64,000 nucleotides of DNA, taken from positions 62,001 to 126,000 of the forward strand of contig CDROCS010004593.1 of NCBI GenBank assembly GCA_977020255.1. Direction: 5' to 3'. The stretch is from Obrimoposthia wandeli (lineage: Eukaryota). Of this stretch, positions 15,701-49,527 are shown one piece after another (positions within the stretch are counted from its first letter, which is position 1; each line of letters begins with the position of its first letter). A model generated the notes under the pieces. The model was not told the origin of the DNA and did no database searches. It saw only the letters and a program-made list of their open reading frames with translations. A program made the translations under genes and the position numbers.

Positions 15701-16892
15701 TCTATCGATGGATGTAAAAATTGTAACAATGTTGAAAAATACAAGAAACTGATGAAGACTTTAATACTCAGAAAATATTATGAAGAATAATGGAAAACAG
15801 GAAGCGCTTTAGAATAATAAATAATAAATTTATTGGATATCAGCTATATATAAATATTTTATAAATTTAGGTTGTTTTTTAGGTTATTTCAGAAGTAATC
15901 CTTTATTTTATATTATTAAAATGCTCTCATTTCGTTTTAAATTATTGGACAATAACTTTTTTAAATGACCGTTTATTATTATTTTCTCATTTTATCAGAA
16001 AACTGTGAAAAATTGGATATAATTGGGATTATGTCATTATTGGAACTCGACTAAAATTAAACTTTTATATGCAATTTTTTTTTAATTAACTTATTATGCA
16101 AAAAATATAATTAAAATGTAATTTTTCAGTACTTATTTATGTTCATCTAATTAATTTTTTCAATCAGTAAAATGGCTGTTTCTGAGAAAATTAAATTTAG
16201 CACCAAATTCAATTTAACCTCTTATTTTACACTGATTTCAAATAAATCAATTACATTAATTACAAGGTTCTATTTTGGTACCGATACTCTTTATAATTTT
16301 TATAAATGATCTTCCGTAAATATTAAATATTCTGAAAAAATATTGAAAAGAGGTCTCCTTATATACACAAACATCAGACTAACCGTCTTTTATCGTCCAA
16401 TGAGAGCGTCATATATAAATAATTTATTTGAAAATCCATAAGCTTTTCTCAAGCTTTGACTACGTTTGAATGCGAGAATGTCATTGGATAAAAAATTATT
16501 CGAAAATTTTACTTCGAATATTTTGTTGGCTGAGTTCAATGTGCAATGAGCAAATGTGCAAAAATCCAAACAAATTTGATCTCATATCCACATACTAATT
16601 AATTTCACTTATGTATCTCTTTGAAAAAGTTACCTTTCTCCTAGTATTTTGGTATTTTATACTGTTTTTTTAGTTAATTATATACTGTTCTCCTTGAAAC
16701 TATTAAGCCGAAATTCCTGATTAATTTCGGTGCGTTTACTTTTTCACTATTATTAAATAATCGCCTAAATTCACGTTTTATCTTCAGTTGCTGAAATTTC
16801 TTTATTTTTGGTTTTGGACAGTAGGTACTTTGATGGAGTCTAGACCACTGGGGGGGGGGTCCCCCCCCCTTGTGTGCGCACACCAAGTTAAA

Positions 16893-17000
16893 GGGTGTCA
16901 CACCATAAGGGTGTCACACCATAGAAATGTCACACCATAGCGTGTCACACCATAAGGGTATATGTTGCCTCACCATAGGGGTGTCTTGCCACACCATAAG
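16893..17000. repeat. Subterminal ~16-bp repeats with near-palindromic core GGTGTCACACC
   Basis: aagggtgtcacaccat x2, agaaatgtcacaccat, agcgtgtcacaccat and two degenerate copies; mirrored at ~28650-28760. Confidence 0.85.
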
Positions 17001-17020
17001 GGTCTGGCTCAGAAAGGTTA

Positions 17021-17600
17021 TGAAGGTTTGAAGGTATGGTCGTGACGGTCTATGGTCGGCCAACATACCCAAGGGGTTGTGGTCGTCCATAGGTCAAAGG
17101 GTCGGGGTCAGTTTTGACTTGAAGGTTTGAAGGTATGGTCGTGACCGTCTATGGTCGGCCAACATACCCAAGGGGTTGTGGTCGTCCATTGATCAAAGGG
17201 TCGGGGTCAGTTTTGACTTGAAGGTTTGAAGGTATGGTCGTGACCGTCTATGGTCGGCCAACATATCCAAGGGGTTGTGGTCGTCCATAGGTCAAAGGGT
17301 CGGACTCAGTTTTGACTTGAAACTTTGAAGGTATAATTAAGGTCAACTATGGTTGGCCGTCACATCTAAAGGGTCATGGACGTCCATAAATCAAAGGGTC
17401 AAGGTCAGTTTTGACTTGAAACTTTGAAGGTATAATTAAGGTCAACTATGGTTGGCCATCACATCTAAAGGGTCATGGACGTCCATAAATCAAAGGGTCA
17501 AGGTCAGTTTTGACTTGAAACTTTGAAGGTATAATTAAGGTCAACTATGGTTGGCCATCACATCTAAAGGGTTGTGGTCGTCCATAGGTGAAAGGGTCGG
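17021..17600. repeat. 99-bp tandem array, 6 units (3 type A + 3 type B)
   Basis: Unit starts at 17021, 17120, 17219 (tgaaggtttg) and 17318, 17417, 17516 (tgaaactttg). Confidence 0.9.
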
Positions 17601-19514
17601 GCTAAAAAAAACAAAGTCAAGTTTAAAATATCAAGGTTTTTAGTACATGGTTGGAATCATCTTTAGAAGACAAATTCAGTCATAAAGTATGGTCGGTCAT
17701 ATATGAAGGGTTCGGGATATAGACCAAATCAAGTTTTAAATGTCAAAGTTTGAATACATGGTTGGAATCATCTTTAGAAGACGAATTCATCCATATATGT
17801 ATGGTCGTCCATAGATGAAGGGTTAAAGAAAAGTTGGAATTTCATAGTTTCAAGTACATGGTTGTATTCGTCAACATATTACGAGTTTAATCATGTAAAA
17901 TTTTTATGGTCGTTCACAAGTTAAGGGTCAGATTTGGAACAAACATGATAATTTTATTACATGGTTGTATTTGCATATGAAAATTGACTTCAAAGATACC
18001 CTTAAGGTCATGCATACTTTAAGAGGTCCTTGTGAAAAAAAAAATAAATAAAAATAAATAAATAAATAAATAAATAAAAATACTTGTAATTTTCTAAAAT
18101 AAAAATATTTTTAAATTTAAATTTGTGCCAAATTATTTTGTTAGATTTTGGTAAAGATAAACAAATTTTTAATTTAACAAGTTTTTAAGATATTAAAGTA
18201 ACATTATTTAAAATAAATATTAAGGAAAAAGTTAATAAACTCAAATTACTTTACTAATAGTATTATTATTATTATAATTTGATAAATATTTAAATTTATG
18301 CAAATTTTTATCCATTTTATTAATGTAATTAAACAATTCTTTGCGGAAAAATTACTTGTAATTTTATTTTTCTTGAAAATAATAATAATTTAAATTTGCG
18401 CCAATTTAATTTGTTAGATATTAATAAAGTTAAACAAATTTTAATTTAACAAGTTTTTAAATATTAAAGTACCAACACATTTATCAATCAATTACGGTAT
18501 GTGAAAGTTCACTCTTATCAGTTAAGGAATGTATTACGTAATAATACACACACTATTCTATGTGAAAATTTAGTACAAAGTTTTTCCCAGGCTTAGGCAT
18601 CTAAAGAATTATGGTAAAAAAAAATTTTAAATAACTTAAATTTCATGTCATAAGGGTCTTGGAGAAAAATACTTGTAATTTTCTAAAATAAAAATATTTT
18701 TAAAATTTAAATTTGTGCCAAATTTTTTATCGTTTCTTTGATTTAATTAAACAAATTTGATTTTAAACATAATGTTAATTATAAAATAATTAATAATTTG
18801 ATAAAAATTCATCTTACCACAAGTTATTCATTGAATCCATTGATGTATGTCCGTCAGCCTAATAGCATTATTCTATAATCTTACTGTAACTTTAGAAAAA
18901 ATAACAAATTTATTACATTAAAATTTAAAAATTGCGCGTTTTTTTTATTGTTTACAATTAATGTATTTAAACAATGACGAAAATAGTTTCAAACGTAAAA
19001 CAATTCATATTAATTATAACTAATTTATTAAAATAAACAAATTTACAAGTACTATTTGATATTTTTTAAAATATAAATAATTTATTTAAAAAATAATACT
19101 TCAAGTTCAAGTTAAATTTTGATAAAAGTCTGTAAAATGATAAATTCTAACATCTTTTTTAAATTACCGCCATTTTTATATTATCCCTTTTGATGTATTT
19201 AAACAAATGTATATACAAACCTAATTATTATAACTATAAGTTAAATATCTTAAATATTTATTAATTTTAAAATTGCATTATTTTATGATTGTAATTTATT
19301 CCTAAAATAATTTGTAATTTTCAAATTAATACTAGCAACCAATGAATAACATTAATAATATGTTTACATTATATTAATTAATATGTAAATTTTCATGTAT
19401 GTGTTTTCTCTCACATAACTTTCACATGTTATAATGATCAATTAACACTCACATAAATAATTAAAACATCCGTATAACATTCCTTAATTGATTTTTATTT
19501 AAACTGATAAAATT

Positions 19515-19750
19515 AACTTCATGTTATTCAAAGCTTACTGGTTAAAGAAATGTTTATTTATATAATTTGAGTATTAACTTTATTCGATTTTCACTATAAA
19601 TATTCGAAAATATCTTTAACACATTCAAAATAATCATAACTTCATGTTATTCAAAGCTTACTGGTTAAAGAAATGTTTATTTATATAATTTGAGTATTAA
19701 CTTTATTCGATTTACACTATAAATATTCGAAAATATCTTTAACACATTAA
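19515..19750. repeat. ~123-bp tandem duplication inside left arm (mirrored at ~25810-26045)
   Basis: aacttcatgttattcaaagcttactgg starts at 19515 and 19638. Confidence 0.85.
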
Positions 19751-20019
19751 AAAAAAAAAAAAAAATAACTTCAATTTTTTTTAAATTTGTATCGAATATT
19801 GAAAATTCATTTGAAAACACATGTTAATCAAAGCTACTGAAAGCCTTGTCTATAAATTCGAATATCAAATCTTTAATAATATTGTTTTTTATGTAAATAA
19901 ATCAAATTATGTATATATTCGATTATCAACTTAGTATTTATATTTATTATTCGACTTTCTAAAATAATTAAAATGTCTTGTAAAAACACATAAAATTAAT
20001 TATCGATTGTATGAATTAG

Positions 20020-20960
20020 TACAAGTATGAATGCAAATATGAAGGCAAATACTAGTAAGAGCCTTAGCAAGTGAATGTAATTGAAAAAATAAGAGTGTCG
20101 AGAGTTTGATTGAATGCAAGTGTAATTTAGACTATAAGTAAATTAAAATAGAGTTTTCGTTGAATAAATTATAGTTAGATTGAATGCAAGTATGAATGTA
20201 AGTGAATGCTAGTATGAATTTCAATACAAGTAAGTGTCAAGTGCAAGTGAATGTAATTTAAAAATAAGAGTGTCAATAGTTTGATTGAATTCGAGTGTAA
20301 GTTAGACTATAAGTAAATTAAAATAGAGTTTTCGTTGAATAAATTATAGTTAGATTGAATGTAAATGAATGCAAGTATGAATTCAAGTGAATGCAAATAC
20401 AAGCAAGAGTCTTAGCAAGTGAATGTAATTGAAAAAATAAAAATAAGAGTGTCGATAGTTTGATTGAATGCGAGTGTAATTTAGACTATAAGTAAATTAA
20501 AATAGAGTTTTCGTATGAATAAAGTTATGTTAAGTTACAGTAAATTAATAACAAGTAAGCAACTATAAGAAGCAGTGATATTGAAGTATGTAAAAAATTA
20601 GAACGACTAAGTTATGGCAAGATTAATAGAAAACAACACTAAGTTTGACAGTATGAATGAAAATTAGTAAAATATTAATGTATTTGAATGTATTTGAATG
20701 ATAGTTTGAATAAATTACAGTTAGATTGAATGTAAATGAATGCAAGTATGATTGAATGCAGGGTCAAGTACAAGTAAGAAAGAATACGCAATATGCAAGT
20801 ACAAATGTAAATTATGAATGAAAATTAGTAAATATATTAATGAATTTGAATGCTAGTTTAAATATATGAGAGTTAGAATGAATGTAAGTGAATGCAAGTA
20901 TGAATGTAAGTGAATGCAAATATGAATGCAAATACAAGTAAGAATCTTTGCAAGTGAATC
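20020..20960. repeat. Nested minisatellite (gaatgcaagt/gaatgtaagt micro-units within ~180-bp blocks), mirrored at ~24590-25540
   Basis: Repeated gaatgcaagtatgaatg and ttagactataagtaaattaaaatagagttttcg blocks; strongly purine-biased strand. Confidence 0.8.
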
Positions 20961-21599
20961 TTAAACTGCAAGTGAGTACTAGCTAATTATTAAATTAATA
21001 CTATCAATCAATGAAGATGATGTAACAACCTGATGAAGTTATAATAATTAAGATGCGAACTTTCATATTTTCACATAGTTTACCTCCATGTTAAAGTTAA
21101 TCTTTCATACATATTCATGCAATTAAATAATTAAAATGTCTTATCTCGTTTGATAAAATTTCTTAATTGAAATATTTTAAAATAATTAGTTTAATTTAAA
21201 TTCTTTATTTTTAAATAACTTGATTATACAATTATATTCGTAAATATAATTGAAATTATCATTATTCGTTTCTCTTTTTAACTATTCGAAAATATATTTA
21301 AATACAAATTTAGTAAATTAACTCAACAAACAATTTTATTTTTTAATTACTTGATATTTTTGCCATTGTCCGTTTAATATAATATGAATATTCAATTTAT
21401 TTCTTCAAAAATTCATTTTTATATGTTAAATAATATTCTTTATCACATTATTGTGATTTTTATCAAGTGATTTTAACATTAAACTATAAAAATATTTTAA
21501 TTATAAAGTTAGTAGCTGTACCGCGCGTACTGCATATAATATAAATTTCAAATATAAAGTATTATTAAATGTATTCTTTCAAATAGTAAAAGTTCTTTA

Positions 21600-23500
21600 G
21601 ATTTATTTAGTTTTGTTTACTAGACATTCGAAAATTGACTTGTAAACTAAATATATTTTCGCATATATTCACTTTAATATGCTGTAAGTTATTACTTTAA
21701 TATAATTTACAACCTAAACTTCAAGTAATTTACTTAATAATCATAATATTAATGATTTGTACGATAAATTGACTTGTAAACATAAAATATTTACAACAAA
21801 CCTCAAGTAGTTTACTTATTAATGATAATTTAAGGATTTGTACAATAAATTGACTTGTAAACATAATTTATTTTGCATATTCATTTAATATATTGTAAGT
21901 TAATACTGTAATATTTCATTACATAAAAAGTAATTCATAGTTTACTGTCGTTTACAATAAATTGACTTGTAAACATAATTTATTTTGCATATATTTAGTT
22001 TAATACGTTGTAAATTATTACTGTAATATTCCATTACATAAAAAGTAATTGATATTTTACTGTCGTTTACTATAAATTTACTTGTAAACATAATATATTT
22101 ATACATATATTAACTTTAATATGTTGTAACTTATTACTTTAATATAATTTTCAACAAAAACTTCAAGTAGTTTACTTATTAATCATAAGTTTAATGTTTT
22201 GTCAATAAATTGACTTGTAAACATAATATATTTATGCACATATTCACTTTAATATGTTGTAAGTTATTACTTTAATATAATTTTCAACAAAACCTTCAAG
22301 TAGTTTACTTATTAATCATAAGTTTAATGTTTTGTACCATAAACTGACTTGTAAACATAATTTATTTTGGTATATATATTCAGTTTAATATGTTGTAAGT
22401 TATTACTTTAATATTCCATTACATAAAAATTAATTGATATTTTACTGTCGTTTACTATAAATTTACTTGTAAACATAATATATTTATGCATATATTAACT
22501 TTAATATGTTGTAACTTATTACTTTAATATAATTTTCAACAAAAACTTCAAGTAGTTTACTTATTAATCATAAGTTTAATGTTTTGTCAATAAATTGACT
22601 TGTAAACATAATATATTTATGTACATATTCACTTTAATATGTTGTAAGTTATTACTTTAATATAATTTTCAACAAAACCTTCAAGTAGTTTACTTATTAA
22701 TCATAAGTTTAATGTTTTGTACCATAAACTGACTTGTAAACATAATTTATTTTGGTATATATATTCAGTTTAATATGTTGTAAGTTATTACTTTAATATT
22801 CCATTACATAAAAATTAATTGATATTTTACTGTCGTTTACTATAAATTTACTTGTAAACATAATTTATTTTGGCATATTTTCAATTTAATATGTTGTAAG
22901 TTATTACTTTAATATAATTTACAACAAAAACTTCAAGTAATTTACTTGTAAACTACAATATTTATTTGTTGTTGCATATATACAGTTTAAAATGTTGTAA
23001 GTTATTACTGTAATATAATTTACAACAAAAACTTCAAGTAGTTTACTTATTAATCATAAGTTTAATGTTTTGTCAATAAATTGACTTGTAAACCTAATTT
23101 ATTTTTGCATATTTTCAATTTAATATGTGTAAGTTATTACTGTAAAATAATTTACAACAAACATCTTCAAGAACTTTACTTAATAATCATAATTTTAATG
23201 ATTTGATCAATAAATTAACTTGTAAACATAATTTATTTTGTATATATTCATTTAATATATTGTAAGTTAATACTGTAATATTTCATTACATAAAAAAGTA
23301 ATTCATAGTTTACTTTCGTTTACAATAAATTGACTTGTAAACATAATTTATTTTGGCATATTTTCAATTTAATATGTGTAAGTTATTACTTTAATATAAT
23401 TTACAACAAAAACTTCAAGTAATTTACTTGTAAACTACAATATTTTTTTGTTGTTGTTGTTGTTGTTGCATAAGTACAGTTTAAAATGTTGTAAGTTATA
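21600..23500. repeat. Central spacer array of ~85-135-bp subunits with a ~385-bp higher-order repeat
   Basis: Recurrent aaattgacttgtaaacataat and aagttattactttaatat; block at 22081 recurs at 22466. Not part of the inverted arms. Confidence 0.8.
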
Positions 23501-23965
23501 AGAATTTGTGTACTTGTATTCAATGATTAACTTTTATTAAACTTTTATATAACATTTAATGTTTAAAATACTTGAGCAAAGTAAATTAATATCATAAAAG
23601 GATATTAAAATGTATTTTAGTTTAAGATAAAAAATGAGGTTATACGAAGTTAATCTAGTTTAAAACAATTAATATCAAAATTACTTACCAGAATGTCTAA
23701 ACAACAGTAAACTATTATAACCTACAATAAAGAAACTATTGAATTATAATATAACCAATCGTATTCAGTAAGTGATAAATGTACAAATCATTAAAATTAT
23801 GATTAATAGGTAAACTATTCGAAATGTTGTAAAATCAAGAAATAAGTTAAAAATATTCATAGTTGAACAACTCATAACTGAAATTTACATTAGTTTAGTA
23901 TTGTATTATATCAAACATATACCTATACGTTTTAAATAAAGTTACTTTAAAAAAAAAAAAAAAAA

Positions 23966-26900
23966 TTACTATTTGAAAGAATACATTTAATAATACTTTA
24001 TATTTGAAATTTATATTATATGCAGTACGCGCGGTACAGCTACTAACTTTATTATTAAAATATTTTTATAGTTTAATGTTAAAATCACTTGATAAAAATC
24101 ACAATAATGTGATAAAGAATATTATTTAACATATAAAAATGAATTTTTGAAGAAATAAATTGAATATTCATATTATATTAAACGGACAATGGCAAAAATA
24201 TCAAGTAATTAAAAAATAAAATTGTTTGTTGAGTTAATTTACTAAATTTGTATTTAAATATATTTTCGAATAGTTAAAAAGAGAAACGAATAATGATAAT
24301 TTCAATTATATTTACGAATATAATTGTATAATCAAGTTATTTAAAAATAAAGAATTTAAATTAAACTAATTATTTTAAAATATTTCAATTAAGAAATTTT
24401 ATCAAACGAGATAAGACATTTTAATTATTTAATTGCATGAATATGTATGAAAGATTAACTTTAACATGGAGGTAAACTATGTGAAAATATGAAAGTTCGC
24501 ATCTTAATTATTATAACTTCATCAGGTTGTTACATCATCTTCATTGATTGATAGTATTAATTTAATAATTAGCTAGTACTCACTTGCAGTTTAAGATTCA
24601 CTTGCAAAGATTCTTACTTGTATTTGCATTCATATTTGCATTCACTTACATTCATACTTGCATTCACTTACATTCATTCTAACTCTCATATATTTAAACT
24701 AGCATTCAAATTCATTAATATATTTACTAATTTTCATTCATAATTTACATTTGTACTTGCATATTGCGTATTCTTTCTTACTTGTACTTGACCCTGCATT
24801 CAATCATACTTGCATTCATTTACATTCAATCTAACTGTAATTTATTCAAACTATCATTCAAATACATTCAAATACATTAATATTTTACTAATTTTCATTC
24901 ATACTGTCAAACTTAGTGTTGTTTTCTATTAATCTTGCCATAACTTAGTCGTTCTAATTTTTAACATACTTCAATATCACTGCTTCTTATAGTTGCTTAC
25001 TTGTTATTAATTTACTGTAACTTAACATAACTTTATTCATACGAAAACTCTATTTTAATTTACTTATAGTCTAAATTACACTCGCATTCAATCAAACTAT
25101 CGACACTCTTATTTTTATTTTTTCAATTACATTCACTTGCTAAGACTCTTGCTTGTATTTGCATTCACTTGAATTCATACTTGCATTCATTTACATTCAA
25201 TCTAACTATAATTTATTCAACGAAAACTCTATTTTAATTTACTTATAGTCTAACTTACACTCGAATTCAATCAAACTATTGACACTCTTATTTTTAAATT
25301 ACATTCACTTGCACTTGACACTTACTTGTATTGAAATTCATACTAGCATTCACTTACATTCATACTTGCATTCAATCTAACTATAATTTATTCAACGAAA
25401 ACTCTATTTTAATTTACTTATAGTCTAAATTACACTTGCATTCAATCAAACTCTCGACACTCTTATTTTTTCAATTACATTCACTTGCTAAGGCTCTTAC
25501 TAGTATTTGCCTTCATATTTACATTCATACTTGTACTAATTCATACAATCGATAATTAATTTTATGTGTTTTTACAAGACATTTTAATTATTTTAGAAAG
25601 TCGAATAATAAATATAAATACTAAGTTGATAATCGAATATATACATAATTTGATTTATTTACATAAAAAACAATATTATTAAAGATTTGATATTCGAATT
25701 TATAGACAAGGCTTTCAGTAGCTTTGATTAACATGTGTTTTCAAATGAATTTTCAATATTCGATACAAATTTTAAAAAAAAAATTGAAGTTATTTTTTTT
25801 TTTTTTTTAATGTGTTAAAGATATTTTCGAATATTTATAGTGTAAATCGAATAAAGTTAATACTCAAATTATATAAATAAACATTTCTTTAACCAGTAAG
25901 CTTTGAATAACATGAAGTTATGATTATTTTGAATGTGTTAAAGATATTTTCGAATATTTATAGTGAAAATCGAATAAAGTTAATACTCAAATTATATAAA
26001 TAAACATTTCTTTAACCAGTAAGCTTTGAATAACATGAAGTTAATTTTATCAGTTTAAATAAAAATCAATTAAGGAATGTTATACGGATGTTTTAATTAT
26101 TTATGTGAGTGTTAATTGATCATTATAACATGTGAAAGTTATGTGAGAGAAAACACATACATGAAAATTTACATATTAATTAATATAATGTAAACATATT
26201 ATTAATGTTATTCATTGGTTGCTAGTATTAATTTGAAAATTACAAATTATTTTAGGAATAAATTACAATCATAAAATAATGCAATTTTAAAATTAATAAA
26301 TATTTAAGATATTTAACTTATAGTTATAATAATTAGGTTTGTATATACATTTGTTTAAATACATCAAAAGGGATAATATAAAAATGGCGGTAATTTAAAA
26401 AAGATGTTAGAATTTATCATTTTACAGACTTTTATCAAAATTTAACTTGAACTTGAAGTATTATTTTTAAATAAATTATTTATATTTTAAAAATATCAAA
26501 TAGTACTTGTAAATTTGTTTATTTTAATAAATTAGTTATAATTAATATGAATTGTTTTACGTTTGAAACTATTTTCGTCATTGTTTAAATACATTAATTG
26601 TAAACAATAAAAAAAACGCGCAATTTTTAAATTTTAATGTAATAAATTTGTTATTTTTTCTAAAGTTACAGTAAGATTATAGAATAATGCTATTAGGCTG
26701 ACGGACATACATCAATGGATTCAATGAATAACTTGTGGTAAGATGAATTTTTATCAAATTATTAATTATTTTATAATTAACATTATGTTTAAAATCAAAT
26801 TTGTTTAATTAAATCAAAGAAACGATAAAAAATTTGGCACAAATTTAAATTTTAAAATATTTTTATTTTAGAAAATTACAAGTATTTTTCTCCAAGACCC

Positions 26901-33860: not shown

Positions 33861-33982
33861 ATTTTTGATTATTATTTTGTCTTTTTTGATTATGTTACAT
33901 AGGAGAATTGACAAAATATTCCAATCTTAACATGAAAGTACTTCGTTATAAACAACGGGATTTGCTACAAATTTAGATAATT

Positions 33983-38610: not shown

Positions 38611-38883
38611 ACGGTTTTTATTTTATTTTAGTTTTTTTAGTTTTTTAAAATTTTAGATCCCTATGGCACCTAGACTCTAACTTATTTGTTATTTCAATAC
38701 TTTTTTAGGATGGACCTTATTTATTATGCCTTATCTTTGCTGACATATCTCATTGTGATGTTGTGATTAATAAATGTATTAAAAAAAATTGTCTTATGTC
38801 TTTTTTTATTTTACCCTTAAATTTTTAGAGATTTAAAAAATAATTCAAAATAAAACATTTGAAATTTTTATTTTTATAACACA

Positions 38884-39264: not shown

Positions 39265-39265
39265 T

Positions 39266-40495: not shown

Positions 40496-40869
40496 TTTGC
40501 AAATATTGTTCCTTCAACATTTTTACGTTTGTTTATATTAATTTTTAGCTTCTTTTTACTTTTAAATCCACTACCTCCTTGGCTTTTATTTGATTTACGT
40601 TTTCTAATCAAATTAGCAACTTCAGGTAAAACATTATCAAGTTCATCAAGTGCATGCTTCTTAAAAGTTGGTATTAGTTTATTGTCATTAGATGAAAGGT
40701 AATCCTTTCCTAATTTTGATATAAATCGCCCGAGTCTCTTTAAAAGAGGATAGGCAAATCTACCTAATGTTCTAAGCCAGCCAGATCCGTATTGTTTACC
40801 AATAAAATATGGTAATTCTCCACCGTGTTGGCTTTGACTATAAGCTTCAACTATTGCTGGATTCGCCCT
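40492..40869 (-). pseudogene. Polinton PX-like small basic core/virion protein; start codon apparently mutated (AGG)
   Basis: Open 125-codon frame missed by the track: ANPAIVEAYSQSQHGGELPYFIGKQYGSGWLRTLGRFAYPLLKRLGRFISKLGK...QGGSGFKSKKK. Its TGA overlaps the capsid ATG (ATGA). Confidence 0.7.
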
Positions 40870-41906
40870 TTTGTTTTCTTAAATGTATTGTTAAACTTGT
40901 CTTGGACCCATACGTGAAATCTATTAGTTGTGCGGAATCATCTCTAATATTTACTTCAATATTGTTTATAGAAAAGAGAGAAACTGGAAGATACATTGGT
41001 TGATCTATACACATACCGACAGCATCCTCATCTCTAGTTTCATTTTTAGATATCCATATTGTTCTCAAAAGTGGAACTCGCTGTCCTCCTACAAGCGTTG
41101 ATTCTATTAAATTAGTATAAATATATAAATGCTTAACAACATTTAAAGGTTTTGCCTTATTTTTTAGCTTTTATGGTTTTTATTGTATGGGTTTCAAGGG
41201 TATTTCTGTTTAAACCAAGGTTTTTAGTGAGTTTATCATCAAATGAAACCCGTTTTATGCTGCTCTTTACTGTAAACGTTAATTTACCATTTAATGTTAC
41301 ACATTTATCCAAATATTCACTACATTCCTTCTGTATTAATTTACATAAATACACTTCACTATCTATTTTATTATCTTTTGAAAACCTTTTCAGTTCCACT
41401 ACAGTCTTTGGTCTCGTTTCAAGTAACAACACTTTTGCTACTCTACCAGGAACATTTTTAACCGATTTAGATGAGACAATATCCCGTTTATTACGAGCTA
41501 CTGTTTGTTCACTATCAAAACTGAATTGAAGAGCTTCTTTTTTAGATTCAAAATTAATTTTAATAACTTGAAGAAATTTTAATCGATTTTTAAATCTGAC
41601 TTTGTTATTTTCAAATATTACTTTCACTTCTTTATCTATACAATTGTAATAGAATTGTCCTTTACTATGAAACCCGATCACAATTTCAGTTGTTTTTTCA
41701 TGATCAACTTCTTTTGTAAACGAAATATGTGAGTTTTTTTTGATAGTAATTGGAGAATAATAAAAAGAAAATTCTGTTAAAGCCGCTTCCCATTCTCCTT
41801 GGAGATTTATAGAATTTTCCCAATCGATAATAAAGCTACTAGCGTCATTATCTGGTTGAGTCTTCGGACATCCGTTACTTGGTAAAACCATATACATAGA
41901 ATTCAT
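40847..41906 (-). pseudogene. Minor capsid/penton (single jelly roll, Polinton PZ-like), one frameshift at ~41165
   Basis: MYMVLPSN..PDN..GEWEAALTEFSF N-terminus; after a shift in an A-run, LYIYTNLIESTLVGGQRVPLLR..PMYLPV..IEVNIRDD..LTIHLRK C-terminus. Confidence 0.9.
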
Positions 41907-42930
41907 ATTATATTAGATGCTGATATCCAAGTTGGATCTGAATAACCATGCCATTTAACATAGTATTGTTTATGTTTACCGACACCCTTAGATTTTAATA
42001 TTTTTTGAATACGGAAAACGCTAGGTTTATTTGATATTACTTGTAGTTCTTGCTCGTAAAATTTACCGTGAACGATATTATTGTCAGCATCTTTAATAGT
42101 ATACATTATTGGATTACTCTTTTGATCAATTTTACTTATACAAAATATTTCATCGCTCCAATTCTAATCAAAGTTTTTAATAAATGGAGTAGAGCTAATT
42201 TTCGAAATTCGAACAGATTCGTTTTTCTTATATTTAGCTCTTTTAATTTTTTCTTTTTTATTCCTGTTCATCCAAATGTCCATAGAGTTTTTATTAGTAA
42301 CATCAACAGGTCTCATTCCCTTGAGACCTCTATGTTCAGAGTGATTATATGCATGTATTATTTTAGGTAAAACTTGGATCCATTTTTTATTTCCTTCTTT
42401 TGTGAAATACTTTTTATTCGACCTCTTAGAGTACGATTAAATCTTTCTACTACTGCTGCTTTGTATTGTGAAAACACAGAGTAATGATTTATATTATTTT
42501 GTTTAAATAAGGATTGAACTTGCTTATTATAAAATTCATTCCCTAAATCAGTTTGTACATTTTGTGGAATGTCCTCTTTCAATATTTCTTTAATGGCTTC
42601 AAGCATAGCTATTGAAGACTTTGCTTTAACTGGAATTGCACGAGCAAACCTGCTAAATACATCAATACATGTTAAAATATATCGATATCCCTTATTAATG
42701 GAAGAATATGGGATCATCTCCATCAAATCCATTTGCAATAAATTATTAGAACCGCTGGTTTTGTAAGCTCTAGTTGGAAACCTTCTTCTCATCGGCTTGT
42801 TCAGACTGTAGGCTAACTGGTCGCTCAGCCATTTCTGCGTTTTCTTGTAATTTTGTTTTGTTCTTTTTGCTAATTTTGAAACTCCTGTGTAGCCAATTGG
42901 ATCTTTTGGATTGAACCATATCTTCTCCAT
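41903..42930 (-). pseudogene. Retroviral-like (rve) integrase with C-terminal chromodomain
   Basis: QMDL, IDVFSRFA, QTDLGNEF, VERFNRTL give D-D-E; after a frameshift (~42410) YNHSEHRGLKGMRP and FYEQELQ; chromodomain FRIQKILK..YYVKWHGY. One stop near 42160. Confidence 0.95.
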
Positions 42931-43016
42931 TACAACAATTTGAATAGAAAGAAAATTTAAGTTTAGGTAAAGAAGGGCTAGCACCCATATCTTTAGCTGA
43001 TTTTAGAAATAATTGT

Positions 43017-43344
43017 TTATGAACGTGTCGCAGCTATAATACTACTGATAATTGAAGCAACAACTGGAATAACAGCCCCTATGAAACCATCATTCTGTTT
43101 AAGAATAATATTTCGTTTCCTTTTTTTTTTTTACATTAGCAATATCTAGAAGAGTTTTTCTATATTTCTTTAATATATTTTTCCGATTTCCAACTTTTAC
43201 TCGACCCAAAACTATATTATACAAAACTTCCAATAAATCATCTACAACAAAGGATGGAAATGCTTTAAGAATAATCATTCTCTTATTAGAAGAGGCTTTG
43301 ACTAAAGCTTTAAAATAGGGTATGCTTCTTTGTATTTTCTTCAT
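43017..43344 (-). pseudogene. Polinton PW-like small protein, frameshift in A-run at ~43125
   Basis: LVKASSNKRMIILK..DDLLEVLYNIVLGRV, then RKRNIILKQNDGFIGAVIPVVASIISSII: basic stretch, QxGG-like site and amphipathic tail typical of this Polinton ORF. Confidence 0.7.
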
Positions 43345-43359
43345 TTTAATAAAAAAGGT

Positions 43360-43513
43360 TCAATTTAAATATTGTTTATATTCGAAGCCATTTAAGTTTT
43401 TTTTATTTTTAACTACAGATTTGATTAATTTTTTCACTTCTTTTTCTTAATGATTCTTTTTTTGATTTCTTAGATTTTACTTTACGTTTTACTATCAACT
43501 TTGTAAAAGGCAT
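43360..43513 (-). pseudogene. ~50-aa lysine-rich peptide (one frameshift)
   Basis: MPFTKLIVKRKVKSKKSKKRIIKK then EVKKLIKSVVKNKKNLNGFEYKQYLN*, filling the gap between ATPase stop and PW start. Confidence 0.4.
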
Positions 43514-43520
43514 TGCGAAT

Positions 43521-44168
43521 TTATTTTTTATAATTGTTCTCTATTTGTTTATAAACAGTTACTCCCTTAGAATTAAATATGTCTGTTAAAACACGTAAAT
43601 CATCTGGGCAAGCTTGTGTAAAGTCAATAAATATATACCCATGTGCTTGTTTAGCAGCATCGTGGAATGAATCAACTAGAAAGTTCTTATTTTGAGGAAA
43701 TGCCTGTCTGGCCACAAAATCAACAACTGTTTGATCTCTAGGATTTTTAAATAAAACTAAGTAATGTACATTAAGATTTCTTGTTCTATGGTGACCTCCT
43801 TGGTGAAACAGATTTTGAGTGATAAATATAACTGTAACTTCACGATGTCTTGCAATCTTTGTAAATAAATTATTAAAGTTCGATTCCTTGTTAGCTTCCT
43901 CATACAAATCATCAATTATTATTACATCTTCTTTTTTCAATCTTTCACACCAATTTGCATCAAATCCTTCAATAAATTTTATACCCTTCAACTTGCAAAC
44001 TTCTGTTTTGGTTAACCCGCTTTCCCCTCCTCCACCATGATGCCAATAAATATTTTTGAAACTAGATTTGAAAAGAGATTCATTTTGCAACAATTTACAG
44101 ACGAAATGTGTCTTTCCACTTCCACTTGGGCCAACTATTTGAAATACAGCATTATTATTTAGCTCCAT
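43521..44168 (-). CDS. A32/FtsK-like genome-packaging ATPase, intact 215 aa
   Basis: Walker A GPSGSGKT, Walker B IIIDD, RH motif (KIARHRE), FITQNLF, YLVLFKNPRD, GYIFIDF. Confidence 0.95.
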   Translation of the reverse strand: MELNNNAVFQIVGPSGSGKTHFVCKLLQNESLFKSSFKNIYWHHGGGGESGLTKTEVCKLKGIKFIEGFDANWCERLKKEDVIIIDDLYEEANKESNFNNLFTKIARHREVTVIFITQNLFHQGGHHRTRNLNVHYLVLFKNPRDQTVVDFVARQAFPQNKNFLVDSFHDAAKQAHGYIFIDFTQACPDDLRVLTDIFNSKGVTVYKQIENNYKK

Positions 44169-44205
44169 TGCTTATACTCTTTCATTTTTAATATTGTTTA
44201 TATTA

Positions 44206-44478
44206 TCATAGAAGTTTCCTTATTGAAATGTACAATGTTAGAGCTATTGTAGATGAAATACAAAAATTAATTAATGAATATTTGGCTATAATTTTATTTA
44301 TTTGTGTACGATTTCTAAATTCTCGAATAACGTGTGATCTAACCAATATTTCAATGTTATCTCTTGTTATATCATTATTTTTTAATTCTGATAAAATTTA
44401 TTTACCCCTAATTTTTCCAGAAAATATTTCATCGGCAAGCCGATCCACTTCATTGTCTCTATTTATAGTATTATTCAT
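44206..44478 (-). pseudogene. 90-codon ORF with C-terminal hydrophobic helix, one in-frame stop
   Basis: MNNTINRDNEVDRLADEIFSGKIRGK*ILSELK...KYSLINFCISSTIALTLYISIRKLL; same orientation as neighbours and fills the ATPase-TBP gap. Confidence 0.45.
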
Positions 44479-44562
44479 TTGAAACAATAAGTTTAAACGG
44501 GGTTTGTTTATAGAAAAAAGATAACAAGATGTAATAAGATATATTTTCTAAAATCAAATCAA

Positions 44563-45003
44563 TTAGACTGGATAATCAAAATTTTTCAGTCCCAATATCA
44601 TAACTTTACCACTGGAAAATATATTTACACATAGCGGTTTAAACTTCAAATAACTGAGAGCAGGAAAAATTTCTGGTTTAAACATGCATTCTTCTTTCAT
44701 TTTCTCTGCAGTTTTAAAAAGATTTATCTGTTTCCCGAGATTAGCCGAAATCGTGATTGATTGTATTGCAGTGATTTGAATACCAAATGGTAAATTGAAC
44801 CCAAGCATTGGTATTTTGCATCCCATAACACGACAATTTCCTAAAGAATTCAATATAAAAATAAAATAAAAAACTAACCTGTAGGAAAAATAACAACTGT
44901 GAAATTGTCAAACTTTCCTACATATTTTCTCGGCATCCATTCATTGAATGGTAAGTACGAAACATCATCTTCTACCTTTATAATTTATATTTACGAGTTT
45001 CAT
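44563..45003 (-). pseudogene. Compact TATA-binding-protein-like (two TBP repeats), 38-nt intron and one frameshift
   Basis: Repeat 2: IQSITISANLGKQINL..FKPEIFPALSY..VNIFSSGKVMILGLK (TBP: IQNIVGS..YEPELFPGLIY..LIFVSGKVVLTGAK). Repeat 1: MKLVNINYKG..TVVIFPTG/NCRVMGCK joined across GT-AG intron 44878-44841. Confidence 0.85.
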
Positions 45004-45181
45004 TAGACTGAAATTGTATTCTGTAAAATCTTCTTTATATATGTCTGAACCTGCTTTTTTATTGCACGTTTCTTGTAATTATCTTGCAAACCTATTATAA
45101 TTGGATGATATATTTAGTCCAATCAAATTCAATGCTTTTGTTATATTAACCAATGAGATTCATGTTTTTGTTAGAAATTAG

Positions 45182-45188
45182 TATAAAA
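45182..45188 (+). promoter_or_regulatory. Candidate TATA box in the divergent intergenic region
   Basis: TATAAAA with initiator-like TCACAGT ~30 nt downstream (45211) and ATG at 45220. Confidence 0.5.
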
Positions 45189-45219
45189 GAATGCGCCATT
45201 GGAGGACAAATCACAGTAA

Positions 45220-45696
45220 ATGCATTCATATCAAAGACAATTATCAACGATGGACGATAGCCAACGGGTATTAAGCGATGACGAAGAAATGTTTGAAGAA
45301 TCGGATAAGGATATGTATGAAGAAGTGAAACAATATTTCAAATACAAAGTCAGATTCTTGAAGAAGGCTCAGCTGATTGCTTTAGTAAATCCTGTGACAA
45401 TTGAAAGAAGAAAGTTCAGCTACTATCTATCAGGTATTCAAAAACCTGATTTTCAATATCTTAAACAGAAAATAGAAAAGGCAGTTCCAAATTTTACTTT
45501 CAATAAGAACGAATTTTATATCCGAGGAGCCGATGAAGCATTTCTAGATGACTATGGAAGATATGTTGATATTGATGCGTTTCCGAAAAAGAAGCAATGG
45601 ACTGTAACAATTCGACTTTATGGTTACAAGAAAGATGAAATGGGAACAAAGTTGCCTATGTGGAAAATTGAACGTGCTCATATTTATATGTTTTAA
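45220..45696 (+). CDS. Unknown protein, paralogue A (148-158 aa, acidic N-terminus)
   Basis: Intact ORF; start at 45220 or 45250; aligns by eye to the next ORF. Confidence 0.8.
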   Translation: MHSYQRQLSTMDDSQRVLSDDEEMFEESDKDMYEEVKQYFKYKVRFLKKAQLIALVNPVTIERRKFSYYLSGIQKPDFQYLKQKIEKAVPNFTFNKNEFYIRGADEAFLDDYGRYVDIDAFPKKKQWTVTIRLYGYKKDEMGTKLPMWKIERAHIYMF

Positions 45697-45829
45697 CTTT
45701 TGTGTGTAATAAATTGTAATCGGTTTTACTATGTTTCTTTCATTTAATAATCAGTTTTATTTGTATCTTATTTGTATATTATGTATATTTTTTATAAACA
45801 TTGTTTTTAATCAGTTTCCTTATTTTAGA

Positions 45830-46217
45830 ATGGATAAAAGATGTGTAGCAAATTTTTATTATCCAGAAAGAATTTCAAAAGGAAAACTGTGTAATATATT
45901 AAAGAGGCATCAAATTATACGAGTTATAAATCCTGTGAAAATATCAAAAGTGGAGAAAAAATATCTCATCGAAATTTTAACAACAACTGATTTTGATCAA
46001 CTGAAAAATATTTTGGGATTTTACATTCCTGATTATGTATATGAAGGAAATTGTTTCGAGCTTGAAACTGATCCCAGTCTGGATTTTAAAGATTGCTCCA
46101 ATTCTAGATGAAGAACTATGGAATATCTCAATACGTCTGAATGGATATTTTGCTGATGACGGGACAATGCAGCCTCTCTGGACTTTGAGTGAAGCCAATA
46201 TGTTGTTTTATGTTTAA
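45830..46217 (+). pseudogene. Unknown protein, paralogue B, one frameshift at ~46085
   Basis: MDKRCVANFYYPE..LKRHQIIRVINPVKI..TDFDQLK..IPDYVY, then (shifted) WNISIRLNGY..GTMQPLWTLSEA. Confidence 0.7.
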
Positions 46218-46342
46218 TAAATATTTTGAAAAATAATTTTGTCTCGTATTTTGTTTTTGCTCCTCTAAATTATATAGATCTGACCGATGTTTTTCGTGCC
46301 TGTAGATCAAGAATGAAGCCCGCCCCAAAGGGGCGGGCGGAG

Positions 46343-46599
46343 NNNNNNNNNNNNNNNNNNNNNNNNNNNNNNNNNNNNNNNNNNNNNNNNNNNNNNNNNN
46401 NNNNNNNNNNNNNNNNNNNNNNNNNNNNNNNNNNNNNNNNNNNNNNNNNNNNNNNNNNNNNNNNNNNNNNNNNNNNNNNNNNNNNNNNNNNNNNNNNNNN
46501 NNNNNNNNNNNNNNNNNNNNNNNNNNNNNNNNNNNNNNNNNNNNNNNNNNNNNNNNNNNNNNNNNNNNNNNNNNNNNNNNNNNNNNNNNNNNNNNNNNN
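46343..46599. other. Assembly gap (257 N)
   Basis: Run of N; flanked by a GC hairpin on the left and a tandem array on the right. Confidence 1.
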
Positions 46600-46603
46600 G
46601 TGT

Positions 46604-46737
46604 GAGAGCGAGACATCCTTACATCGCCAAGCTAGTCTGTGACCTATATGAGAGCGAGATATCCGTACATCGCCAAGCTAGTCTGTGACCTATATGAGAG
46701 CGAGATATCCGTACATCGCAGGACTAGTCTGTGACCA
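46604..46737. repeat. 46-bp tandem repeat, at least 3 units, abutting the gap
   Basis: gagagcgagatatccgtacatcgccaagctagtctgtgacctatat starts at 46604, 46650, 46696. Confidence 0.9.
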
Positions 46738-46760
46738 ATGTCGGTCCCGAGCCCTTCGCC

Positions 46761-46867
46761 CCCCCTTGTCTTTTAAAACCGTGCATGTGTGTGGAGTAAA
46801 ATTTCACTCCACACACCTACACGAAATTTCACTCCACACACATGCACGGATTTAAAGGACAAGGGGG
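46761..46867. repeat. Subterminal palindrome (~45-bp arms)
   Basis: cccccttgtcttttaaaaccgtgcatgtgtgtggagtaaaatttc pairs with gaaatttcactccacacacatgcacggatttaaaggacaaggggg with ~3 mismatches; 17-nt loop repeats part of the arm. Confidence 0.9.
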
Positions 46868-46874
46868 AGGGGGG

Positions 46875-46904
46875 TGTGGATTAGACCGGACACATCCACC
46901 TACT
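46875..46904 (-). repeat. Polinton right terminus (AGTAGGT... read inward)
   Basis: Reverse complement AGTAGGTGGATGTGTCCGGTCTAATCCAC; followed by ATCGGT and a return to AT-rich DNA. Confidence 0.8.
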
Positions 46905-47964
46905 ATCGGTAAATTTAAAATATTCCATAACTCTGTTTGTTATTTGTGAATATTTTGACCAAACTGCAATCATCATCGTTATTTTTAGTTGCATTTATAT
47001 GGTCAATGCACGTGGCTCAAGAGACTTATATAAATGTTTTTGTTTTTTGTGGGAATATATATTTTTTGAAAATAATTCAGATATAGAATTCAAATCTGGC
47101 ATTGATCGGCAGCCAATGGAGCTTCATTAAATGTTTATTTGTACTAACACATTTTCTTTAATTTTAATATAATCCTTAATTTGTTTAATCCATTTTACAA
47201 GCGATTTAATTGATAATCTGGAATATAAAACAATAAAGAGTTGTAAAAATAAATGTGTAATGTGATAATGTCGTGCGCTAGCATTGTATTTATCTCAGTA
47301 GTACGGTATTTTAATAATAGATTAATCTTTTTGATATGACTGTTGTTTGTTCTTATTACTTGATTAATTTGACGATCGATTGTAATGTTTTCATTGAGAA
47401 TGCAATCAATGTTCTTTATTTTACTTTTTATATTAATAATTTTATGAATTAAACTTATTTTTTCTTTAAAACAGTTTATATTATTCTTATATCCAAATAA
47501 TATAGCCCCATCTTCCATTGTTTTGATATCATCCATATAGCTATTTTGTTAATAAAATATTCCATTTCAGAAAATGGGATTTCAGGCATTAGAATAAAGA
47601 TCAAAATAAAATTTATGAGTCATCAGCACAAAGGTGGAAATAAATATTTAATTTCTTAATAATGGCTACGATTGACGAAGTATAGATGGAAAATAGGATT
47701 GGATCGAGATCCAAACCCTGAACACTGCACTTTAAATATACAGAATCTGCGATAGTGTCATCAATTAAGATAGATTATTCAGCAAATGTAAATAAAATTT
47801 AAACAAATTCAGCTCCTTTTCAAATCTTTAAATAATATTTAATTATTAACAGTATCGATATACGACTCAAGATGCTAAATTTTAAGCCTAATGTTAACAA
47901 TTCAAAAAACTTTGGTATCTGAAGTTGATTATTAACGCCACGGATTACCTCAGTGAGTAGTATA

Positions 47965-49516
47965 AGTAGGTGGAAGGATAGAGTCTAGCCCACTTGATCT
48001 CCTCGAGTGTGCACACCAACCAGAAGTGAATGTGTGTACACACCAGCACGTATGTGTGTGCGCACACCATTGAGTGCTTACATCATAAACAGAACTGTCT
48101 CTGTAATCGACCAAGGTTGGCTTGCCACGCCATAAGGGTCTGACTGAGAAAGCTTATGAATGTTTGAAGGTATGGTTGTGACCATCAATAGTTGACCAAC
48201 ACATCTAAAGGGTTGTGGTCGTCCATAGATGAAAGGTTCGGGCTAAAGATAAAATCAAATTTCAAATATCAAGATTTGAGTACATGGTTGAGATCATCTT
48301 TAGAAGACGAATTCAACCATAAGGGTATGGTCGACCATAGATGAAAGGGTCCAAATAAAATGGAATTTCAAAGTTTTAATGATATGGTTGTGATTGTCAT
48401 AATATTGTGTTTAACCATGTATAAATTTTTTATGGTCGTCCACAACTTAAGAGTTATTTTTGGAACAAACTTCATCATTTTATTACATGGTTGTATTTGT
48501 CTATCAAAATTGAGTTCAACCATACCCTTATGTATAAGGGAAGGGTCCTAGTGAAAAATTAAAATCCTTGTTATTTCCAAAAGAATGATATTTATAATTT
48601 AAATTTGTGCCAAACAAATTTTAATTTAACAGGGTTTTAAAATAAAATATTAAATTGTCATTATTTAAAATAAAAATTCAGCGAAATTTTTATAAAAAAT
48701 CAAAATACTTTACTTCTTTTTTTCTCACAAATATTTAAATTTACGCAAAATTTTCATAATTTTTGTGATGTATTTAAAAAAATTAGTATAAAAATTAAAC
48801 GTCAAGCAAACTTTTATTTTTACAACAAAACTATTAAATATGACATTGAAGTGCAATTTTTTAATATAAAAATTAAGCAAAAATGTTTAATAAATTAAAA
48901 TATTTTACTATTGATGATAAATATTTAATGTACATAAAGTTTTCATTGTTTCAATTGATAAAATTAAACAATTTTTTTAATTTTTAAAACATAAATATTA
49001 AACAGATATACAATTAATTTAAATATACAATATACAATTAATTTAAATTTTAAAAAAACTGTAATAATTAACATTTTTAATAAATAATCAATATACTGTA
49101 AGTATTTTCATAAGATGTATTGACGTATATCTGAAAGACTAAGATAAAAACTTTAAAAAAATACTTAAAAATATGCATGCTCTTTTTATTTACAAATAAT
49201 GTATTAAAACAATGCAAAGACTTTTATAATTTAAATGCAACGCCATTTAAATTAATTTTAAATAATTTATTAAAATAAAAACAATATACAAGTATTAATT
49301 AATATTTTTAATTTGTAAATAAAAAGAATATATATAAAAAAATAATACTTCAATTACAACAAACAACTAATAAAATACAATTTTGGGAAAAAATTATAAA
49401 ATATTTCGTGTTTTATTAAAATTTTGCTGAATTTTTATTTTAAATAATAACACTTTAATATTTTATTTTAAAAACCTGTTACTCCTGTTGGCCAATACTC
49501 CATCCTTCCACCTACT
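47965..49516. mobile_element. 1,552-bp non-autonomous relative of the 12-kb foldback element
   Basis: 20-bp TIRs AGTAGGTGGAAGGAT(A/G)GAGT; flanks AGTATA (47959-64) and AGTACA (49517-22), 5/6 TSD; ~48130-48700 is homologous to the left arm of the 12-kb element with a single 99-bp unit; internal inverted repeat ~48620-48700 vs ~49400-49480. Confidence 0.85.
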
Positions 49517-49527
49517 AGTACATTCGA

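What the first reader, a model, noticed from the sequence alone, without database searches (positions are those of the whole stretch)
16820..49516. One terminal motif shared by the coding Polinton and two non-coding elements
Read inward, the ends are AGTAGGT-ACTTTGATGG-AGTCTA-GA-CCAC (16820), AGTAGGT-GGATGTGTCC-GGTCTA-AT-CCAC (46904, reverse) and AGTAGGT-GGAAGGATAG-AGTCTA-GC-CCAC (47965). Two conserved boxes at fixed 10-nt spacing around a variable core look like a bipartite origin or integrase-recognition site. Inference: a helper/parasite system in which non-coding elements are mobilised in trans by this Polinton family.
Basis: partly seen in the sequence, partly recalled or inferred. Interest (0 to 1): 0.85.

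Follow-up and report, generated by a model that had tools for sequence, protein, structure and literature searches.

The report
Gene-free passengers of Polinton viruses
The shared motif is the tip of three related Polinton (virus-like transposon) lineages that have left about 34,000 such ends in this animal genome, many on elements with no genes at all, and its ten variable letters follow the lineage's DNA polymerase, so they are likely the address that tells each polymerase which passengers to copy.

Summary
The motif is real: three exact hits, and 28,847 genome-wide against 0 for the reversed control. It marks true element ends: 90 fetched elements have 6-bp target duplications (82 perfect). 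The "variable core" is not free. It has three fixed versions, each belonging to a coding Polinton lineage (P1, P2, P3).

The window's coding copy is a broken P1 and shares only about 30 nt with the two non-coding elements. Element A (12.0 kb foldback) belongs to P3. Element B is an older P2/P3 relic from a single insertion. The helper/parasite idea holds, but the likely helper is a sister lineage.

New points:
(1) In 6 of 6 recombinants that swap polymerase and integrase alleles, both ends carry the version of their polymerase, which points to a replication origin.
(2) 13 gene-depleted copies refill to 10.9-12.8 kb against 11.7-13.5 kb for full copies, and 11 of 32 gene-free copies are 9.8-13.0 kb, hinting at capsid-length selection.
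(3) 161-201 bp mini-elements fold back at one 8-bp palindrome.

Linkage and shared ancestry weaken (1) and (2). Non-autonomous Polintons as such are known. Verdict: new variant of a known kind.

The parts
16814..16819 (+). left target-site duplication of element A (TTGGAC)
   Evidence: identical 6-mer at 28829-28834
16820..28828 (.). Element A: 12,009-bp gene-free foldback element of lineage P3; longest ATG frame 58 codons; GC 24%
16820..16848 (+). A left terminal motif, P3 version of nt 8-17; identical to the tips of coding P3 copies
16836..21611 (+). A left arm (~4.75 kb) built of 16-, 99-, 111-, 123- and 175-bp repeat arrays; 98.6-98.8% complementary to the right arm
21632..23499 (.). A central AT-rich tandem array (115-133-bp units)
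23944..28824 (-). A right arm
28812..28828 (-). A right terminus lacking nt 6-17 of the motif (private variant)
28829..28834 (+). right target-site duplication of A (TTGGAC)
31423..46904 (.). Coding Polinton of lineage P1, left end (~0.9 kb) missing, no duplication partner; 95-97% identical to full 16-17.6-kb copies over the core
35013..38341 (+). protein-primed polymerase B, broken into several frames
   Evidence: Pfam PF03175 E=1.5e-30
38884..39228 (-). likely adenain-like protease
   Evidence: weak Pfam PF00770 hit, E=0.039, below cut-off; conserved position in relatives
39266..40495 (-). [quoted passage not shown]
   Evidence: iridovirus, PBCV-1, Sputnik and mavirus capsids, E about 1e-12 to 1e-15
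41903..43002 (-). rve integrase with chromodomain, broken into three frames
43521..44171 (-). A32-like packaging ATPase
   Evidence: Pfam PF04665 E=9e-7
44563..44907 (-). TBP-like gene
   Evidence: Pfam PF00352 E=1.3e-11
46755..46870 (-). copy-back hairpin inside the P1 right end, turning at the GAAATTTC palindrome; same junction as the 175-183-bp mini-elements
   Evidence: z=-11
46876..46904 (-). P1 terminal motif, P1 version of nt 8-17
47965..49516 (.). Element B: 1,552-bp gene-free relic; P2-type tips with only ~20 matching nt, body 70-80% like P3-type arms; flanks AGTATA/AGTACA (5 of 6); one insertion, later duplicated with its flanks

Best explanation
The motif is the outermost ~29 nt of the inverted repeats of three co-resident Polinton lineages, and A and B are gene-free derivatives that were likely copied and inserted by proteins supplied in trans, A most likely by lineage P3 and not by the neighbouring P1 copy. 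SHOWN: three lineage-fixed versions of nt 8-17; 6-bp duplications; a graded series in P3 from full copies, to copies whose polymerase is replaced by non-coding filler, to wholly non-coding foldbacks made of that same filler; in recombinants the nt 8-17 version follows the polymerase. INFERRED: nt 1-7 serve protein-primed initiation and integrase joining and are common to all lineages. Nt 8-17 (with GTCTA) are likely the site read by the terminal-protein/polymerase, so each lineage would replicate mainly its own passengers, while integrase and capsid are exchangeable between P2 and P3. Foldbacks and mini-elements likely arise by template switching during strand-displacement synthesis (copy-back), and panhandle replication would keep the arms alike. 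MORE SPECULATIVE (about 0.35): filler restores genome length because passage through capsids favours ~12-kb DNA.
For: Ends and duplications: 90 elements have 6-bp duplications (82 perfect, 8 at 5/6; chance 3.5e-4 and 6e-3). 89 of 89 have the same class at both ends. About 13 other inward-facing pairs failed the test.

Class counts: P1 21,141, P2 10,771, P3 2,059 ends, all controls 0.

P2 vs P3: capsid and ATPase genes are 97-99% identical, but polymerase 75%, TBP-like 77% and integrase C-half 88%.

Spacer follows polymerase: all 15 duplication-flanked coding copies with P2-class ends carry P2 polymerase. 27 of 28 ends beside a P3 polymerase are P3 class (2 of 30 loci showed no end). 3 of 18 P3-polymerase copies carry the P2 integrase half and have P3 ends on both sides with perfect duplications. 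3 of 17 P3-integrase copies carry P2 polymerase and have P2 ends on both sides with perfect duplications. The P2 and P3 polymerases differ most in the N-terminal part (39% and 52% in the first two bins, 80-85% in much of the core), where PMC11161782 (passages) places the terminal protein.

A's ancestry: A is 69% covered by the filler of polymerase-less P3 copies, 22% by a full P3, 0% by P1. Arm identity is higher within than between foldbacks in 5 of 6.

Mini-elements: 6 of 7 duplication-flanked P1 mini-elements turn at GAAATTTC.

Length: 13 gene-depleted copies are 10.9-12.8 kb with 4.4-7.3 kb of non-core DNA; 19 full copies are 11.7-13.5 kb with a median of 2.1 kb.
Against: The polymerase gene lies next to one inverted repeat, so linkage plus biased end homogenisation could give the same pattern. 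The six recombinants may descend from only 3-4 events.

One P3-polymerase copy has a P2-class end on the polymerase side; it has no duplication, so it may be a later rearrangement. A itself has one end without nt 6-17 and B one end with a broken box 2; whether they inserted that way is unknown.

Length: 19 of 32 gene-free P2/P3 elements are under 9 kb, and all 11 gene-free P1 elements are under 2.6 kb, so full length is not needed. One duplication-flanked P2 copy is 24.2 kb with repeat arrays and one is 14.4 kb. Kept-versus-filler correlation among depleted copies is not significant (rho -0.41, p 0.17). One depleted copy is simply old, so its gene content is under-scored.

Samples came from the first 100 listed hits or best-scoring hits, and pairs over 30 kb were not examined. 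No binding, replication or particle data exist.
Confidence: 0.68

Rival explanations
1. One pooled helper system: any of the three lineages can copy and insert any end. Nt 8-17 are a neutral lineage tag that stays with the polymerase only because the gene sits beside the inverted repeat.
For: Nt 1-7 and GTCTA are common to all classes. P2 and P3 swap integrase halves freely. The polymerase is 1.1-1.5 kb from one end. One P3-polymerase copy has a P2 end.
Against: The far end also matches the polymerase in 6 of 6 duplication-flanked recombinants. There are no mixed ends in 89 elements. No P1-end element carries P2/P3 filler, and A and B have no P1 body.
Confidence: 0.17
2. The class-specific reader is not the polymerase. 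It is the integrase N-half or catalytic core, the TBP-like protein, or a host factor binding the sub-terminal repeats that differ between classes.
For: Sub-terminal repeats differ between classes along with nt 8-17. The TBP-like gene differs between P2 and P3 (77%).
Against: The integrase N-half is 99% identical in P2 and P3, and the C-half is swapped in 6 copies without changing the ends. Two P3-end copies carry the P2 TBP-like allele and one has none.
Confidence: 0.08
3. The gene-free elements are not mobile units. They are full Polintons that lost genes and grew repeats after insertion.
For: Large in-place changes occur: nested retroelements, a 24-kb copy with arrays, a 15-unit tandem of one end, and three cases with inverted flanks. 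B is a single insertion.
Against: Foldbacks at different sites with different perfect duplications share 86-95% identical non-coding arms. Mini-elements at different sites share one junction type. Polymerase-less copies with a truncated TBP-like gene and filler recur (C49, C116, C285 and six more).
Confidence: 0.05
4. A and B are foldback elements of another DNA transposon class (Galileo/P-like, Ginger or Mutator-like) with a chance likeness of ends.
For: Long, internally repetitive inverted repeats resemble Drosophila Foldback/Galileo (search listing of PMC3573991 only).
Against: A's tip is identical to, and its first kilobase 87-92% like, coding P3 Polinton ends; the duplication is 6 bp.
Confidence: 0.02

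Closest known systems
Polintons/Mavericks (PMC8097293, passages read; Kapitonov & Jurka 2006 not held, recalled)
   Same: pPolB, rve integrase, packaging ATPase, double jelly-roll capsid, terminal inverted repeats starting AGT, 6-bp duplications, many degraded copies.
   Different: The tip is not the (AGT)2 or (AG)3 motif listed for vertebrates, and conservation runs to about nt 29 across lineages only 55-73% identical in protein. Copy number is far higher (about 34,000 ends). A TBP-like gene is present.
Non-autonomous Polintons: polB-less polinton-related insertions with TE cargo in butterflies (bioRxiv 10.1101/2025.02.07.637071, passages); zebrafish non-autonomous Polinton families (recalled from Kapitonov & Jurka 2006 and Repbase, not seen)
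   Same: Elements that lost polB but kept their ends and kept moving.
   Different: Here the replacement is the element's own non-coding repeat filler. The series goes on to wholly gene-free 10-13-kb palindromes and 100-200-bp mini-elements, and the ends sort by polymerase allele.
Adenovirus ITR origin and genome-size limits (PMC9863843, passages; the nt 9-18 pTP-polymerase site is recalled, searches gave no passage)
   Same: Protein-primed, strand-displacing replication from inverted ends; a core just inside the tip at nearly the same position; genome length affects virion stability.
   Different: These elements are integrated, and no particles or binding have been shown here.
Copy-back/snap-back defective genomes; hairpin deletion derivative of the kalilo linear plasmid (title only, in the reference list of PMC11161782; the rest recalled)
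   Same: Palindromic, gene-poor derivatives that keep both ends and depend on a helper.
   Different: These are integrated in a germ line with target duplications. Interference with the helper is untested.
MITEs and Foldback/Galileo elements (search listings; otherwise recalled)
   Same: Short or long non-coding elements with inverted repeats, moved in trans.
   Different: The partner is a self-synthesising, capsid-encoding element, not a cut-and-paste transposase.

Membership tests
Polinton/Maverick (coding lineages P1-P3) | protein-primed family B polymerase | tested here: met
   PF03175 E=1.5e-30; broken in the window copy, long open frames in other copies
Polinton/Maverick (coding lineages P1-P3) | retroviral-like rve integrase | tested here: met
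   PF00665 in P1 and P2
Polinton/Maverick (coding lineages P1-P3) | double jelly-roll capsid, packaging ATPase, protease | tested here: met
   fold match to DJR capsids; PF04665; protease only a weak hit, E=0.039; minor capsid assigned by position only
Polinton/Maverick (coding lineages P1-P3) | [quoted passage not shown] | tested here: met
   TIRs about 100 bp (P1) and about 400-900 bp (P2/P3); duplications; not met in the window's own P1 copy, which has one end
Polinton/Maverick (coding lineages P1-P3) | virions or free terminal-protein-capped DNA | not testable with these tools
   only DNA-like contig runs of one sample are held
non-autonomous Polinton (element A family) | ends of a coding Polinton, no own mobility genes | tested here: met
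   tip identical to P3, first kb 87-92%; longest ATG frame 58 codons; no hits from Polinton proteins
non-autonomous Polinton (element A family) | dispersed copies at independent sites with their own duplications | tested here: met
   related gene-free P3 elements with different perfect duplications
non-autonomous Polinton (element B) | dispersed copies at independent sites with their own duplications | tested here: inconclusive
   the 3 close copies share flanks, so one insertion; duplication 5 of 6
non-autonomous Polinton | mobilisation in trans shown directly | not testable with these tools
   inferred from gene absence plus duplications
defective interfering / copy-back genome | copy-back junction retaining both ends | tested here: met
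   6 of 7 mini-elements turn at GAAATTTC; near-perfect 9.8-kb palindrome, 98.5%
defective interfering / copy-back genome | packaged by, and interferes with, the helper | not testable with these tools
   only the length distribution bears on it
cut-and-paste foldback transposon (Galileo/P, Ginger, Mutator) | ends and duplication of a transposase-bearing partner | tested here: not met
   every coding element with these ends that was examined carries Polinton genes

The most novel reading that the evidence does not exclude
This genome holds a layered satellite system of Polinton viruses. Full helpers, polymerase-less elements that donate capsid and integrase, and gene-free palindromes all fill out to one capsid's worth of DNA (~12 kb), and each is addressed to its helper by a 10-nt polymerase-specific origin. 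The length match would be genomic evidence that Polintons travel in virions, and the recombinants would be the first map of a Polinton replication origin.
Probability: 0.33. Interest if true: 0.86.

Novelty: new variant of a known kind. Interest (0 to 1): 0.64.

Why it matters
How Polintons replicate, and whether they pass through virus particles, is argued mostly from gene content. In the papers I could read, end motifs are described only as 6-bp repeats. Here natural recombinants between two co-resident lineages separate what follows the polymerase (nt 8-17) from what does not (integrase C-half, TBP-like gene, capsid). That gives a precise prediction testable on short oligonucleotides. The refilling of gene-depleted copies to helper length gives a second test, for encapsidation, that needs only a genome census. 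For annotation: 43 of the 90 bounded elements I examined (a selected sample) have no Polinton gene DNA, so protein-based scans would miss much of this family's footprint.

Tried and rejected
- A conserved hairpin at the tip: 6 of 6 terminal 32-mers fold no better than shuffles (z -1.05 to +1.06). Rejected.
- RNA families in 16000-50000: none at gathering score.
- An alternative genetic code for the coding element: not needed; the breaks are stops and frameshifts.
- Motif in IMG/VR: 5 hits, none beside Polinton genes by tblastn. Treated as chance.
- Relatives elsewhere: 31 metagenome loci with 42-72% capsid identity, none with a recognisable terminus. None in viral contigs. Conservation of the motif outside this genome is therefore untested.
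- A's deleted right end as a subfamily: only 2 hits, and the other arose differently.
- A strict 13-kb ceiling: not held. Of five duplication-flanked pairs over 14 kb, one holds a gypsy-type retroelement (Pfam RT/RNaseH/rve), two hold long retro-like frames (not Pfam-tested), one has ~14 kb of arrays and duplications, and one has a ~2-kb insertion.
- A genome-wide count of mini-elements was not obtained. 6 pairs of at most 201 bp are among the first 100 listed hits.
- Sequence search of PDB with the capsid profile: no hit; the fold search did hit.
- No RNA holder listed.
- Reads laid on A's right flank: two contigs leave the stretch exactly at 28828 with 23 and 63 letters that were not printed. 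This fits an empty allele, but it is one sample and unverified.
- Earlier scan notes: none.
- Kapitonov & Jurka 2006 and Krupovic & Koonin 2015 are not held.
Full report
OBSERVATION. The three ends read as quoted at 16820, 46904 and 47965. A fourth at 49516 has three mismatches, and chance expectation is 0.09. In the window's genome (G000, 1.35 Gb, host not determined) the pattern has 28,847 exact hits and the reversed control none. Spacers of 5-9 or 11-14 nt give 329 and 73 hits.

WINDOW ANATOMY. Element A spans 16820-28828, between two TTGGAC duplications. It has ~4.75-kb arms that are 98.6% complementary, a central tandem array, and no ATG frame over 58 codons. Its right tip lacks nt 6-17, a private variant. 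The coding element spans about 31423-46904. It has polymerase B, integrase, ATPase, a TBP-like gene (Pfam) and a double jelly-roll capsid. Polymerase and integrase are broken into several frames, and the left ~0.9 kb with its end is missing, so this copy cannot now be a helper. Element B spans 47965-49516, with only ~20 matching nt at its tips and a 5-of-6 duplication. Its two close relatives share its flanks, so it is one insertion.

THREE LINEAGES. Fetching inward-facing pairs showed that the ten 'variable' letters come in three versions, each on a coding lineage. P1 (full copies 16.0-17.6 kb; the version at 46904) has 21,141 ends and at least 102 near-identical capsid genes. P2 (11.7-12.8 kb; different gene order; 55-73% protein identity to P1 in the core genes; the version like that at 47965) has 10,771 ends. 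P3 (12.7-13.5 kb; the version at 16820) has 2,059 ends. P2 and P3 share capsid and ATPase genes at 97-99% but differ in polymerase (75%), TBP-like gene (77%) and integrase C-half (88%). Across classes nt 1-7, nt 15 and GTCTA are constant or nearly so, while the last letters of box 2 vary in intact copies. These counts are biased by the patterns used to find the ends.

TRUE ENDS. After removing duplicates and B's two flank-sharing copies, 90 elements have 6-bp duplications: 82 perfect and 8 with one mismatch. Chance is 3.5e-4 per pair for a perfect match. About 13 further pairs failed, three of them with inverted flanks. All 89 elements with two scorable ends have one class at both ends. 43 of the 90 have no detectable Polinton gene DNA (11 P1, 32 P2/P3). 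The sample comes from the first 100 listed hits of four patterns and from best-scoring protein hits, so it is not random.

WHO HELPS A AND B. A shares nothing with P1 beyond the tip. It is 22% covered by a full P3 copy, 69% by the non-coding filler that replaces the polymerase in polymerase-less P3 copies, and 69-99% by other gene-free P3 elements. Its first kilobase is 87-92% like coding P3 ends. B has P2-type tips and an older P3-like body, with 0% P1.

WHAT READS NT 8-17. All 15 bounded coding copies with P2 ends have P2 polymerase. Of 30 loci around a P3 polymerase, 28 showed the near end: 27 are P3 and one is P2, and that copy has no duplication. Three of 18 P3-polymerase copies carry the P2 integrase half; two of them also have the P2 TBP-like allele and one has none. 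All three have P3 ends on both sides and perfect duplications. Conversely, 3 of 17 P3-integrase copies carry P2 polymerase, and all three have P2 ends on both sides and perfect duplications. Of the other 14, one has P3 polymerase, eleven lack polymerase (ten with P3 ends, one with P2 ends) and two showed no end. The two polymerases differ most at the N-terminus, where terminal-protein domains lie (PMC11161782, passages). The adenovirus polymerase/terminal-protein site at nt 9-18 is a recalled parallel; two searches returned no passage for it. Inference: nt 8-17 are likely the polymerase-specific part of the origin. Limits: the gene is next to one end, and the six copies may be only 3-4 events (about 1 in 8 to 1 in 16 by chance, my estimate).

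HOW THE PASSENGERS FORM. Six of seven bounded P1 mini-elements (161-201 bp) turn back at the self-complementary GAAATTTC of the P1 repeat; the 100-bp one does not. The window's P1 end has the same junction. In 5 of 6 long foldbacks the two arms are more alike (96-99%) than arms of different elements (86-95%). Both fit template switching and panhandle copying during protein-primed synthesis, which is inferred.

LENGTH. Nineteen full P2/P3 copies are 11.7-13.5 kb. Thirteen copies that lost 3-5 kb of genes are still 10.9-12.8 kb. Eleven of 32 gene-free copies are 9.8-13.0 kb, 19 are shorter, and the two longer ones hold nested retroelement sequence. A post-hoc test on P3 (7 of 18 in the top 15% of the range) gives p about 0.01, but copies share ancestry. 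Against: short elements insert well, gene-free P1 elements are all under 2.6 kb, and a 24-kb and a 14.4-kb bounded P2 copy exist. Capsid-length selection is possible, not shown. PMC8097293 (passages) makes the same argument for intact vertebrate Mavericks, and PMC9863843 (passages) notes size effects on adenovirus virions.

LITERATURE. Ten searches and keyword passages of twelve papers were used. No whole text and no supplement was read. I found polB-less mobile polintons with TE cargo, the known 6-bp end motifs, an apparent absence of non-autonomous copies in a lizard, and Maverick expansion in Dugesia without structural detail. I found no description of gene-free genome-length Polinton palindromes, copy-back mini-elements, or an origin segment tracking the polymerase. 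The founding paper and Repbase were not available; I recall that they list non-autonomous Polintons, so the basic helper/dependent relation is known.

VERDICT. A real feature and a new variant of a known kind. Approximate odds: helper-dependent Polinton derivatives 0.9; A served by P3 rather than P1 0.85; nt 8-17 read by the polymerase 0.55-0.6; capsid-length selection 0.35. Interest 0.64.

Noticed in passing
window 44563-44907 (-); L036:5031-5582; L158, L161, L175: A TBP-like gene sits beside the ATPase in all three lineages and in three metagenome relatives (47-51% identity), so it looks like a core gene of this Polinton clade. PMC8502044 mentions TBP only in a figure legend.
   Followed up: partly
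window 31528-35390 (+): P1's accessory region has acidic, low-complexity frames interrupted by short AT-rich segments that look like spliceosomal introns; no Pfam hits.
   Followed up: no
G000 C21:203922-213858, C237:249587-254473, C8:150867-151042: Three elements have flanks that are inverted copies of each other (1.25 kb, 1.26 kb, 55 bp) instead of a direct duplication. This could be element-centred inverted duplication or an assembly artefact.
   Followed up: partly
G000 C52:645211-691771: 15 tandem units of ~3.3 kb, each containing one P3 end: a Polinton end turned into a satellite.
   Followed up: partly
L219-L221 and L222-L224: Giant (~19-22 kb) LTR retroelements nested in P2-end elements; the first has gypsy-type domains and a RING finger by Pfam.
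   Followed up: partly
L011-L013 (G000 C3:34966, 68637, 102318): Three P1 ends with identical flanks at ~33.7-kb spacing: a large tandem segmental duplication.
   Followed up: no
window ~47040-51000: The ~4-kb segment holding B, including an unexplained 157-codon frame at 49528-50001, occurs three times at ~97% identity.
   Followed up: partly
window 16320-16550 and 29236-29643: Older Polinton remnants flank A: a P1-like sub-terminal piece on the left and a frame 23% like a P1 accessory gene on the right.
   Followed up: partly
target duplications of 75 elements: Mild symmetric target preference, with A at position 2 and T at position 5 (77 of 150).
   Followed up: no
window 60520-61100: 42-bp tandem array (13.8 copies) within open frames on both strands; no Pfam hit for the frame tested.
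   Followed up: no
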